From: the human T2T-CHM13v2.0 reference genome, Homo sapiens
DNA: 64,000 nucleotides
Assembly (NCBI RefSeq): GCF_009914755.1
Contig: NC_060936.1
Strand: one strand, 5' to 3'
Each line of letters starts with the position of its first letter. Position 1 is the stretch's first letter. Below are positions 31,887-33,473 of the stretch, piece after piece. The position numbers were made by a program, and so were the translations under genes. Under the pieces are notes generated by a model that saw only the letters and a list, made by a program, of their open reading frames with translations, searched no databases and was not told the origin of the DNA.

Positions 31887-32033
31887 CGGACAGGATTGAC
31901 AGATTGATAGCTCTTTCTCGATTCCGTGGGTGGTGGTGCATGGCCGTTCTTAGTTGGTGGAGCGATTTGTCTGGTTAATTCCGATAACGAACGAGACTCT
32001 GGCATGCTAACTAGTTACGCGACCCCCGAGCGG
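31886..32033 (+). rRNA. 148-nt retroposed 18S rRNA fragment (approx. human 18S nt 1278-1425); not a functional rRNA gene
   Basis: ACGGACAGGATTGACAGATTGATAGCTCTTTCTCGATTCCGTGGGTGGTGGTGCATGGCCGTTCTTAGTTGGTGGAGCGATTTGTCTGGTTAATTCCGATAACGAACGAGACTCTGGCATGCTAACTAGTTACGCGACCCCCGAGCGG; no differences from mammalian 18S as I recall it. Confidence 0.96.
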
Positions 32034-33473
32034 GTCTGCGCCTGCCACCTGTGCGGGGGCCGGCAGGACCCCGACAAGCAGCTCATGTGCGATGAGTGCG
32101 ACATGGCCTTCCACATCTACTGCCTGGACCCGCCCCTCAGCAGTGTTCCCAGCGAGGACGAGTGGTACTGCCCTGAGTGCCGGAATGATGCCAGCGAGGT
32201 GGTACTGGCGGGAGAGCGGCTGAGAGAGAGCAAGAAGAAGGCGAAGATGGCCTCGGCCACATCGTCCTCACAGCGGGACTGGGACAAGGGCATGGCCTGT
32301 GTGGGCCGCACCAAGGAATGTACCATCATCCCGTCCAACCACTACGGACCCATCCCGGGGATCCCCGTGGGCACCATGTGGCGGTTCCGAGTCCAGGTCA
32401 GCGAGTCGGGTGTCCATCGGCCCCACGTGGCTGGCATCCATGGCCGGAGCAACGACGGAGCGTACTCCCTAGTCCTGGCGGGGGGCTACGAGGATGACGT
32501 GGACCATGGGAATTTTTTCACATACACGGGTAGTGGTGGTCGAGAGCTTTCCGGCAACAAGAGGACCGCGGAACAGTCTTGTGATCAGAAACTCACCAAC
32601 ACCAACAGGGCGCTGGCTCTCAACTGCTTTGCTCCCATCAATGACCAAGAAGGGGCCGAGGCCAAGGACTGGCGGTCGGGGAAGCCGGTCAGGGTGGTGC
32701 GCAATGTCAAGGGTGGCAAGAATAGCAAGTACGCCCCCGCTGAGGGCAACCGCTACGATGGCATCTACAAGGTTGTGAAATACTGGCCCGAGAAGGGGAA
32801 GTCCGGGTTTCTCGTGTGGCGCTACCTTCTGCGGAGGGACGATGATGAGCCCGGCCCTTGGACGAAGGAGGGGAAGGACCGGATCAAGAAGCTGGGGCTG
32901 ACCATGCAGTATCCAGAAGGCTACCTGGAAGCCCTGGCCAACCGAGAGCGAGAGAAGGAGAACAGCAAGAGGGAGGAGGAGGAGCAGCAGGAGGGGGGCT
33001 TCGCGTCCCCCAGGACGGGCAAGGGCAAGTGGAAGCGGAAGTCGGCAGGAGGTGGCCCGAGCAGGGCCGGGTCCCCGCGCCGGACATCCAAGAAAACCAA
33101 GGTGGAGCCCTACAGTCTCACGGCCCAGCAGAGCAGCCTCATCAGAGAGGACAAGAGCAACGCCAAGCTGTGGAATGAGGTCCTGGCGTCACTCAAGGAC
33201 CGGCCGGCGAGCGGCAGCCCGTTCCAGTTGTTCCTGAGTAAAGTGGAGGAGACGTTCCAGTGTATCTGCTGTCAGGAGCTGGTGTTCCGGCCCATCACGA
33301 CCGTGTGCCAGCACAACGTGTGCAAGGACTGCCTGGACAGATCCTTTCGGGCACAGGTGTTCAGCTGCCCTGCCTGCCGCTACGACCTGGGCCGCAGCTA
33401 TGCCATGCAGGTGAACCAGCCTCTGCAGACCGTCCTCAACCAGCTCTTCCCCGGCTACGGCAATGGCCGGTGA
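32004..33473 (+). CDS. Intact 489-aa chimeric ORF: 9 aa from 18S rRNA (MLTSYATPE) + UHRF1 314-793; translation unproven
   Basis: ATG at 32004 (GGCATGC, purine at -3) is in frame with UHRF1; no stop or frameshift until TGA at 33471-33473. The ORF track's 515-aa version starts at a GTG (31926). Confidence 0.4.

What the first reader, a model, noticed from the sequence alone, without database searches (positions are those of the whole stretch)
32004..33473. rRNA donates an in-frame start codon, giving an intact 489-aa UHRF1 variant lacking UBL and TTD
Seen: the ATG inside the 18S segment (GGC ATG C, G at -3) is in frame with an undisrupted UHRF1 314-793. Established (recalled numbering): it keeps the core PHD ligands and H3R2-reading D334/D337, the SRA base-flipping residues (G448, Y466, D469, Y478, N489-K490-R491), the polybasic region and the RING. 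It loses the UBL (needed for E2 recruitment and H3 ubiquitylation), the tandem Tudor, and C302/C305/C313 of the pre-PHD zinc site. Inference: if translated, it could bind hemimethylated CpG without recruiting DNMT1, acting as a natural dominant-negative of maintenance methylation with an rRNA-born N-terminus. An in-frame junction has roughly 1-in-3 odds by chance, and intactness may only reflect youth.
Basis: partly seen in the sequence, partly recalled or inferred. Interest (0 to 1): 0.85.

Follow-up and report, generated by a model that had tools for sequence, protein, structure and literature searches.

The report
Human-specific 18S–UHRF1 chimeric retrocopy
A young, human-only copy of the back half of the UHRF1 messenger RNA, fused to a piece of ribosomal RNA and pasted into a PDE3A intron, still has an open reading frame, but the locus is already published and nothing shows that a protein is made.

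Summary
Window 32004-33473 (+) is a 489-aa ORF. Its ATG lies in a 148-nt piece that is 148 of 148 identical to 18S rRNA. Residues 10-489 match human UHRF1 314-793 at 477 of 480 positions.

It is an L1-type chimeric processed retrocopy. 18S nt 1278-1425 joins spliced UHRF1 mRNA through a 3-nt overlap. Ten introns are removed, and AATAAA, a 22-nt A-rich tail and 13-14-bp target-site duplications are present.

The locus is in print as 'UHRF1-r' (Mori et al. 2016, PMC5010893). That paper reports it as human-specific, an 18S+UHRF1 chimera, and transcribed from a start site 232 bp upstream. It does not discuss the rRNA-borne ATG in the parts I read.

Youth explains the intact frame. There are 7 CDS differences from the parent (3 N, 4 S), about 5-7 changes on the copy's own lineage, and random changes leave the frame open 76-89% of the time. 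Ka/Ks of 0.22 is not significant once constraint on the parent is allowed for (P about 0.2). Translation and any dominant-negative action remain untested. The best reading is a young transcribed pseudogene.

The parts
31654..31886 (+). Unique, AT-rich 5' flank that would form the first ~232 nt of the published transcript. [quoted passage not shown]
   Evidence: PMC5010893 passage. The flank has no other match in the genome at this sensitivity.
31792..31797 (+). Upstream ATG followed directly by TGA (a minimal uORF) in the inferred leader.
31873..31886 (+). 5' copy of the target-site duplication (TAAAAAAAGATTTA, 13-14 bp), preceded by CTT. This fits an L1 endonuclease-type TT/AAAA site.
   Evidence: (family D5)
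31886..32033 (+). 18S rRNA fragment, about nt 1278-1425 of 18S, in the same orientation as the UHRF1 part.
   Evidence: 148 of 148 identity to rDNA copies. Rfam RF01960, 108.5 bits. Numbering comes from the 18S 5' end located in L013.
31940..31978 (+). 12-codon uORF inside the 18S piece, out of frame, ending 26 nt before the main ATG.
32004..33473 (+). 489-aa ORF: 9 rRNA-encoded residues (MLTSYATPE), then UHRF1 314-793, then the stop codon.
32031..32033 (+). CGG shared by 18S and UHRF1 at the junction (3-nt microhomology). The junction lies inside a parent exon, not at a splice site.
   Evidence: 18S identity ends at 32033. UHRF1 identity starts at 32031, where the parent has 'gc' upstream rather than 'ag'.
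32043..32180 (+). Core PHD finger coding region (ORF residues 14-59).
   Evidence: Pfam PF00628, E 2.2e-11
32340..32846 (+). SRA (SAD_SRA) domain coding region (ORF residues 113-281).
   Evidence: Pfam PF02182, E 2.5e-51
33258..33377 (+). RING finger coding region (ORF residues 419-458).
   Evidence: Pfam PF13923, 20.8 bits, below its 27-bit cut-off. The region is identical to PDB 3fl2_A.
33474..34823 (+). UHRF1 3' UTR copy, with 3 substitutions and 5 indel events, 4 of the 5 being single-T or T-run length changes in T-rich stretches and one a 3-base TTC deletion, relative to the parent.
34803..34808 (+). AATAAA poly(A) signal carried in from the UHRF1 mRNA.
   Evidence: Read from the sequence. 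The paper says the transcript ends at this signal.
34824..34845 (+). 22-nt A-rich tail (AAAATAAAAAAATAAAAATAAA) that is absent from the parent gene's genomic sequence.
34846..34859 (+). 3' copy of the target-site duplication.

Best explanation
This is LOC728688, published as 'UHRF1-r'. It is a young, human-lineage-specific chimeric processed retrocopy made in one L1-mediated event.

Proposed origin: L1 reverse transcriptase primed on the poly(A) tail of a fully spliced UHRF1 mRNA at a TT/AAAA-type nick in a PDE3A intron. It copied 2,793 nt back to codon 314. It then most likely switched template onto 18S rRNA at a 3-nt CGG overlap and copied 148 more nt (18S ~1425 back to ~1278) before the cDNA was joined to the target. 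That left 13-14-bp target-site duplications.

By a 1-in-3 chance, one of the two ATGs in the rRNA piece is in frame with UHRF1, which creates a 489-aa ORF (core PHD, SRA, RING). The frame is intact because only about 5-7 substitutions have hit the 2,959-bp insert, not because selection has kept it. The locus is transcribed at a low level from a start site in the 5' flank, according to the published work. Its most likely status is a transcribed pseudogene or non-coding RNA whose ORF is an unselected by-product.

Shown here: the anatomy, the origin from spliced mRNA plus 18S, and the divergence counts. Taken from print: human specificity and the transcript structure. Inferred: template switching as the joining step, and the absence of a protein function.
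For: (1) Retrocopy hallmarks. 11 parent exon segments on C19:4927024-4947373 are joined exactly, and all 10 removed introns have GT..AG in the parent. There is an AATAAA and a 22-nt A-rich tail that the parent genomic sequence lacks. There is a 14-nt direct repeat at 31873-86 and 34846-59, preceded by CTT.
(2) One event. A single TSD pair flanks both parts, no A-tail lies between them, and they share orientation.
(3) The 18S piece is 148 of 148 identical to rDNA. The junction overlap is 3 nt, and the chance of an overlap of 3 nt or more is 0.05.
(4) Youth. The CDS has 7 differences in 1,443 nt, the UTR has 3 substitutions in 1,350 nt, and the 18S piece has 0 in 148.
(5) Polarity. The 3 amino-acid changes are derived in the copy, because mouse and the human parent agree at those sites. 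There are 2 CpG losses in the copy, 3 CpG losses in the parent, and 2 changes of unknown direction.
(6) Published data. Mori et al. 2016 report absence from chimpanzee, gorilla and orangutan, the 18S+UHRF1 chimerism, a TSS 232 bp upstream, use of the copy's own poly(A) signal, and RT-PCR signal in normal tissues (PMC5010893).
(7) No selection signal. Ka/Ks is 0.22, with Fisher P = 0.050 against omega = 1. Against the appropriate null (neutral copy, constrained parent) P is 0.17-0.21.
(8) An ORF this size stays open after 3, 5 or 7 random substitutions in 89%, 83% and 76% of 20,000 trials each.
Against: Pairwise Ka/Ks is below 1. It is 0.22 here with borderline P = 0.050, and 0.182 with P < 0.05 in Mori et al., who read it as purifying selection. 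No indel has hit the 1,470-nt ORF, whereas the 1,350-nt UTR has 5 indel events (4 of the 5 are length changes in T-rich stretches, which the CDS largely lacks). A discrete polyadenylated, intronless transcript containing the whole ORF is reported, so translation is not excluded. uORF 31940-31978 ends 26 nt before the main ATG, which leaves room for reinitiation. The polarity of synonymous changes rests on CpG context, not on an outgroup sequence. Template switching versus prior RNA ligation cannot be settled from one junction.
Confidence: 0.8

Rival explanations
1. The locus is a human-specific protein-coding gene. The transcript is translated from the rRNA-borne ATG, or from the internal ATGs 32085 or 32103, into a core-PHD, SRA and RING protein. 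That protein binds hemimethylated CpG but cannot ubiquitylate H3 efficiently, and so it modulates maintenance methylation in a dominant-negative way.
For: The 489-aa ORF is intact and 477 of 480 identical to UHRF1 314-793. All 11 checked residues are kept. The ATG has G at -3. An intronless polyadenylated transcript spanning the ORF, with signal in normal tissues, is reported (PMC5010893). Ka/Ks is 0.22 here and 0.182* in print. A UBL-less UHRF1 loses almost all H3 ubiquitylation in vitro (PMC6242706). An earlier automated annotation gave the locus an XM_ (predicted mRNA) accession (PMC3931319 table).
Against: No call or paper that I read shows translation. The Ka/Ks signal vanishes under the correct null (P 0.17-0.21). 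On the copy's own lineage the count is 3 N against 1-2 S, close to the neutral 77% N. The ATG is the third AUG in the inferred leader. The authors describe expression of these transcripts in general as low. Loss of 15 of the 18 pre-PHD residues removes most of one zinc site and may destabilise the N-terminus (the stability point is inference). RefSeq now calls the locus a pseudogene (hub annotation).
Confidence: 0.07
2. The RNA, not a protein, is the functional product. The sense transcript carries the whole UHRF1 3' UTR and acts as a competing endogenous RNA or lncRNA that tunes UHRF1 or PDE3A. This is the proposal of Mori et al.
For: The 3' UTR is 1,347 of 1,350 identical at aligned substitution sites, so parent miRNA sites would be preserved. 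The transcript includes it in sense orientation (PMC5010893). The copy sits in sense inside a PDE3A intron, about 2.3 kb upstream of the exon at 37124-37174, and carries a working-type AATAAA (hub annotation).
Against: Expression is described as low, and stoichiometry is the usual objection to ceRNA models (general knowledge). No functional test is reported in the sections I read. UTR conservation is explained by youth.
Confidence: 0.1
3. Same retrocopy, different joining step. An 18S fragment and a cleaved UHRF1 mRNA were ligated as RNA (for example by RtcB) before a single reverse transcription, rather than joined by an RT template switch.
For: [quoted passage not shown] RtcB-mediated RNA ligation precedes U6/L1 chimera retrotransposition and can join U6 to other RNAs (PMC6789731, abstract listing and passages).
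Against: Both ends of the 18S piece are internal (~1278 and ~1425), not natural RNA ends. The 3-nt overlap at the junction (chance 0.05) is the type of feature that paper associates with RT-mediated joins. The same paper leaves template switching open for 3'-truncated small RNAs joined to other cellular RNAs.
Confidence: 0.25

Closest known systems
UHRF1-r / LOC728688 as described by Mori et al. 2016 (Genome Biol Evol 8:2288, PMC5010893)
   Same: It is the same locus. The paper gives hg19 chr12:20704359-20707315, 2,957 bp, in PDE3A in sense orientation. My insert is 31887-34845, 2,959 bp. The paper states that it is human-specific, is an RNA18S plus UHRF1 chimera lacking exons 1-6, has a TSS 232 bp upstream, ends at its own poly(A) signal, and has Ka/Ks 0.182.
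   Different: Its Table 1 lists 'Full-length ORF: No'. The Results (part 1) and Discussion that I read do not mention the rRNA-borne ATG, the 489-aa ORF, the 3-nt junction overlap, the 18S coordinates or the polarity of the substitutions. The supplementary PDF could not be read and might hold more.
L1-mediated chimeric (bipartite) retrocopies: U6/L1, 5S/L1, 28S/L1 and small RNA/mRNA chimeras
   Same: There are two RNA-derived parts in the same orientation, with the abundant non-coding RNA at the 5' side, a single poly(A) end, one TSD pair and an L1 endonuclease-type site. In print, 28S rRNA pieces of 50-482 nt (median 269 nt) occur in chimeras, 83% of them in sense (bioRxiv 10.1101/2025.02.02.635956, passages).
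   Different: Here the 3' partner is a cellular mRNA, not L1, and the 5' partner is 18S. The word '18S' occurs 0 times in that preprint. Buzdin et al. 2003, the paper on many types of chimeric retrogenes, is recalled only. My look-up by a guessed id failed.
Full-length UHRF1 (parent gene, C19:4.92-4.95 Mb)
   Same: The ORF is 477 of 480 identical over residues 314-793, covering the core PHD, SRA, the linker region and the RING.
   Different: It lacks residues 1-313, that is the UBL, the tandem Tudor and 15 of the 18 pre-PHD residues. It has 9 rRNA-encoded N-terminal residues and the changes G398D, V413I and D485E. It has no introns and no UHRF1 promoter.

Membership tests
L1-mediated processed retrocopy | Introns of the parent gene precisely removed | tested here: met
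   11 exon segments are joined. All 10 internal boundaries have ag..gt in the parent.
L1-mediated processed retrocopy | Poly(A) tail at the mRNA cleavage site that is not encoded in the parent gene | tested here: met
   A 22-nt A-rich tail lies at 34824-34845. The parent continues GACTTGATTG. AATAAA is at 34803-34808.
L1-mediated processed retrocopy | Target-site duplication at an L1 endonuclease-type (TT/AAAA) site | tested here: met
   A 14-nt identical repeat at 31873-86 and 34846-59, preceded by CTT and starting (T)AAAAAAA.
Chimeric (template-switch type) retrocopy | Two unrelated RNA-derived parts inside one TSD pair, in the same orientation, with no tail between them | tested here: met
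   18S 31886-32033 abuts UHRF1 32031-34823 with a 3-nt overlap.
Chimeric (template-switch type) retrocopy | Joining occurred during reverse transcription rather than by prior RNA ligation | not testable with these tools
   Only the 3-nt microhomology (chance 0.05) bears on this.
Lineage-specific (human-only) insertion | Empty orthologous site in other apes | not testable with these tools
   No ape genome is held. The claim is taken from PMC5010893 (BLAT and dot plots). It is consistent with the copy's own-lineage divergence of 5-7 changes in 2,959 bp.
Functional retrogene | Transcribed as a discrete RNA | not tested
   Reported by RT-PCR and RACE in PMC5010893. The array and RNA-seq 'LOC728688' signals elsewhere look like rRNA cross-mapping.
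Functional retrogene | Purifying selection on the copy's own lineage | tested here: inconclusive
   3 N to 4 S, Ka/Ks 0.22, P = 0.050 against omega = 1, but P 0.17-0.21 against the null with a constrained parent. On the copy's own lineage the count is about 3 N to 1-2 S.
Functional retrogene | Translated | not testable with these tools
   No Ribo-seq or MS data are available here, and none is mentioned in the papers I read.
UHRF1-type E3 ligase (UBL-TTD-PHD-SRA-RING) | N-terminal UBL and tandem Tudor domains | tested here: not met
   The ORF aligns only to residues 314-793. Pfam finds only PHD, SRA and RING.
UHRF1-type E3 ligase (UBL-TTD-PHD-SRA-RING) | Complete PHD with its pre-PHD zinc site | tested here: not met
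   The core PHD is present. The pre-PHD is mouse 304-321, equal to human 299-316 (with the offset), and only 314-316 remain.
UHRF1-type E3 ligase (UBL-TTD-PHD-SRA-RING) | SRA and RING domains intact | tested here: met
   SAD_SRA E 2.5e-51. The region is identical to the solved SRA and RING chains except D485E.

The most novel reading that the evidence does not exclude
A gene born in the human lineage within roughly the last few million years, whose start codon and first nine residues come from 18S rRNA. It would make a UBL- and Tudor-less UHRF1 (core PHD, SRA, RING) that competes with full-length UHRF1 at hemimethylated CpG. Because it lacks the pre-PHD surface that DPPA3 needs (PMC9757060), it might also escape DPPA3 control. 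That would give humans a private modulator of maintenance DNA methylation.
Probability: 0.06. Interest if true: 0.8.

Novelty: already known. Interest (0 to 1): 0.3.

Why it matters
UHRF1 is the factor that brings DNMT1 to newly replicated DNA. A human-only truncated paralog that kept DNA binding but lost the UBL would therefore be a candidate species-specific brake on methylation maintenance. The evidence here does not reach that point. What the locus does show is how an L1 event can fuse rRNA to an mRNA and, by a 1-in-3 chance, supply a start codon to a decapitated coding sequence.

There is also a practical lesson. The insert contains 148 nt identical to 18S rRNA. 'LOC728688 expression' in arrays and RNA-seq tracks rRNA and other non-polyadenylated RNAs. 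It should not be read as expression of this locus unless junction-specific or variant-specific reads are used. The junction 21-mer is unique in the genome.

Tried and rejected
(1) Two independent insertions (18S first, then UHRF1). Rejected because one TSD pair flanks both parts and no tail lies between them.
(2) RT stalling at a modified 18S base as the cause of the 5' end. The piece starts at ~nt 1278, about 30 nt 3' of the hypermodified U that I recall at 1248. There is no support, and the modification position is recalled, not tested.
(3) The 5' flank as a repeat-derived promoter. Window 31480-31872 has no other match in the genome at this sensitivity, so there is no evidence for a transposon promoter.
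(4) A CpG-island promoter inside the insert. 18S plus CDS has GC 0.615 and CpG o/e 0.70, but Mori et al. state that none of their retrocopies is transcribed from its 5' CGI (abstract).
(5) Other close UHRF1 retrocopies. None was found. One search gives only this locus, the parent exons and one 66% match on C23.
(7) Buzdin 2003 could not be fetched by a guessed PMC id.
(8) A search for UHRF1 + dominant-negative + UBL domain + hemimethylated found 0 papers.
(9) 'UHRF1 pseudogene' found 1 paper, which I did not read. 'UHRF1-r' as a whole word found 4 papers. I read only Mori et al. 2016 among them; by their titles the other three are UHRF1 expression studies, where I take the term to be a reverse-primer label (not opened).
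(10) I did not fold the protein. Every domain already has a solved human structure at 99-100% identity.
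Full report
**Observation**

Window 32004-33473 (+) is an ATG-initiated ORF of 489 aa, the only long ORF in the region. Rfam places a eukaryotic SSU rRNA match starting at 31885 (108.5 bits, E 1.4e-29). A search of the window's own genome shows that 31886-32033 is 148 of 148 identical to the tandem rDNA 18S copies on contig C13. Those copies are spaced 46,970 bp apart, and 39 are listed among 40 scored of 243 candidates. 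I located the 18S 5' end in locus L013 with a short primer-type motif, which puts the piece at about 18S nt 1278-1425.

The ATG at 32004 is inside this piece, in the context GGCATGC. Against the PDB, ORF residues 10-489 align without gaps to human UHRF1 314-793 (9lpk_A) with three differences. A codon-by-codon comparison with the parent gene identifies them as G398D, V413I and D485E. Pfam finds PHD, SAD_SRA and a RING. The RING is below its cut-off but is identical to the solved human RING chain. What those residues do is recalled knowledge, not a result of any call.

**What it is**

The genome search returns the parent gene exon by exon on C19:4927024-4947373. After trimming BLAST overhangs at exon boundaries, 11 parent segments map colinearly onto 32031-34823. 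All 10 removed introns have GT..AG in the parent. The first segment starts inside an exon, since the parent has 'gc' upstream rather than 'ag'.

The copy carries the whole 3' UTR, an AATAAA at 34803-34808 and a 22-nt A-rich tail that the parent genomic sequence lacks. A 14-nt direct repeat (TAAAAAAAGATTTA) lies at 31873-86 and 34846-59, preceded by CTT. That is a TT/AAAA-type L1 endonuclease site. The 18S piece and the UHRF1 part lie in the same orientation within this single pair of target-site duplications, with no tail between them. 18S identity ends at 32033 and UHRF1 identity starts at 32031, so CGG is shared. An overlap of 3 nt or more is expected by chance in 5% of blunt joins.

This is the anatomy of an L1-mediated chimeric retrocopy. 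I favour a template switch by the reverse transcriptase from UHRF1 mRNA to 18S rRNA. Prior RNA ligation, shown for U6/L1 chimeras (PMC6789731, passages), is not excluded. Chimeras of L1 with 28S rRNA pieces of similar size are in print (bioRxiv 10.1101/2025.02.02.635956, passages). That text does not mention 18S (0 occurrences).

**Already in print**

A search for UHRF1 + retrocopy + human-specific found one paper: Mori et al. 2016, Genome Biol Evol (PMC5010893). I read its abstract, the UHRF1 passages, Results part 1 and the whole Discussion. Its supplementary PDF could not be read.

- It lists 'UHRF1-r' at hg19 chr12:20704359-20707315, 2,957 bp, in PDE3A in sense orientation. My insert is 2,959 bp.
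- It reports the copy as absent from chimpanzee, gorilla and orangutan.
- It reports a transcript starting 232 bp upstream of the insert and ending at the insert's poly(A) signal.
- It reports RT-PCR signal in normal tissues that is reduced in many cancer lines.
- It reports Ka/Ks 0.182, marked significant.
- Its table says 'Full-length ORF: No', and the function it proposes is ceRNA or lncRNA.
- In the parts I read, the rRNA-borne ATG and the 489-aa ORF are not discussed.

An older NCBI model gave the locus an XM_ accession (table in PMC3931319). RefSeq now calls it a pseudogene (hub annotation).

**Why the frame is intact**

Relative to the parent in this same genome:

| Region | Length | Substitutions | Indel events |
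|---|---|---|---|
| CDS | 1,443 nt | 7 (3 nonsynonymous, 4 synonymous) | 0 |
| 3' UTR | 1,350 nt | 3 | 5 (4 T-run length changes, one TTC deletion) |
| 18S piece | 148 nt | 0 | 0 |

Nei-Gojobori counting gives 1113.8 N sites and 326.2 S sites, Ka/Ks 0.22, and Fisher P = 0.050 against omega = 1.

That null is the wrong one. Half of the path between copy and parent is the constrained parent lineage. With parent omega of 0.05-0.2 and a neutral copy, seeing 3 or fewer N among 7 has P = 0.17-0.21.

The polarity of the changes points the same way:
- All three amino-acid changes are derived in the copy, because mouse UHRF1 and the human parent agree at those sites.
- Two differences are CpG losses in the copy (32441, 34230).
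- Three are CpG losses in the parent (32489, 32852, 34160).
- Two are undetermined (32438, 34185).

On its own lineage the copy therefore has about 3 N to 1-2 S in the CDS, close to the neutral 77% N. In total it has 5-7 changes in 2,959 bp (0.17-0.24%). By my recalled figure of roughly 0.6% for the human branch since the chimpanzee split, that fits an insertion well after the split. This agrees with the published human specificity. In simulation the ORF stays open after 3, 5 or 7 random substitutions in 89%, 83% and 76% of 20,000 trials each. Intactness is what youth predicts.

**Could it be translated?**

With the published start site (about window 31654) the leader is ~350 nt and AT-rich. 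The ATG at 32004 is the third AUG in it. It follows ATG-TGA at 31792 and a 12-codon uORF at 31940-31978 that ends 26 nt upstream. This lowers the odds of translation but does not exclude it. In-frame UHRF1 ATGs at 32085 and 32103 would also open ORFs of 462 and 456 aa, so the rRNA ATG is not needed for a long ORF.

If made, the protein would lack the UBL. A UBL-less UHRF1 has almost no H3 ubiquitylation activity in vitro (PMC6242706, passages). It would also lack the tandem Tudor and 15 of the 18 pre-PHD residues (pre-PHD is mouse 304-321, human 299-316; PMC9757060, passages; offset). A dominant-negative effect is a reasonable hypothesis, but no call supports it.

**Expression caveat**

Of the 4 papers that mention LOC728688, I read passages of three.
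- In a hyperthermia array it rises together with RNA18S5, RMRP, snRNAs and vault RNA (PMC3931319).
- In an osteosarcoma data set it falls together with RPPH1, RN7SK and RMRP (PMC7336512).
- The CASTER preprint flags an odd Gorilla-Pan signal in the pseudogene as a paralogy artefact. That fits a human-only insert with no true orthologue.
- The fourth paper (PMC12259430) I saw only in the listing.

The co-variation with non-polyadenylated abundant RNAs suggests that such signals come from 18S rRNA matching the 148-nt piece. This is my inference. The junction 21-mer is unique in the genome and is the proper probe.

**Verdict**

The feature is real, correctly described and already known. It is a human-specific, L1-made 18S-UHRF1 chimeric retrocopy that is transcribed at a low level. 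The rRNA-donated start codon is a true and, as far as I could find, unremarked detail. The data favour a chance by-product in a young pseudogene (about 0.8) over a new protein-coding gene (about 0.06-0.07).

Noticed in passing
L015 (G000:C23:72538001-72544000), locus positions 2144-3498: An intronless UHRF-like sequence on contig C23. It matches the ORF over residues 12-336 at 61% amino-acid identity and residues 337-488 at 46%, with one stop inside each of the two hits. It looks like an older, decayed processed pseudogene of a UHRF family member. Which parent it came from was not determined.
   Followed up: partly
window 31886-32033: Published 'LOC728688' expression values move together with RNA18S5, RMRP, RN7SK, RPPH1 and snRNAs in two unrelated studies (PMC3931319, PMC7336512). 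This suggests that probes or reads are capturing 18S rRNA through the 148-nt rRNA-identical piece rather than measuring this locus.
   Followed up: partly
window 31797-32091: The RefSeq 'silencer' functional element (hub annotation) spans the end of the unique flank, the TSD, the whole 18S piece and the first 60 nt of the UHRF1 part. It overlaps the inferred transcript leader. Whether the assay signal could be affected by the rRNA-identical sequence was not examined.
   Followed up: no
window 34803-34808 relative to the PDE3A exon at 37124-37174: The insert places a sense-oriented AATAAA, and a transcript reported to end there, inside a PDE3A intron about 2.3 kb upstream of a coding exon. Any effect on PDE3A pre-mRNA, such as intronic polyadenylation, is unexamined.
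   Followed up: no
G000:C13:5779235-7564242: The rDNA 18S matches on C13 are spaced exactly 46,970 bp apart across all 39 listed copies, and all are 100% identical to the window's 18S piece.
   Followed up: no
window 32004-33473 versus bioRxiv 10.1101/2023.10.04.560884: A whole-genome-alignment study reports a strong Gorilla-Pan signal inside LOC728688 and attributes it to paralogy. That is what one would expect if other apes lack the insert and their UHRF1 exons are aligned to it instead.
   Followed up: no
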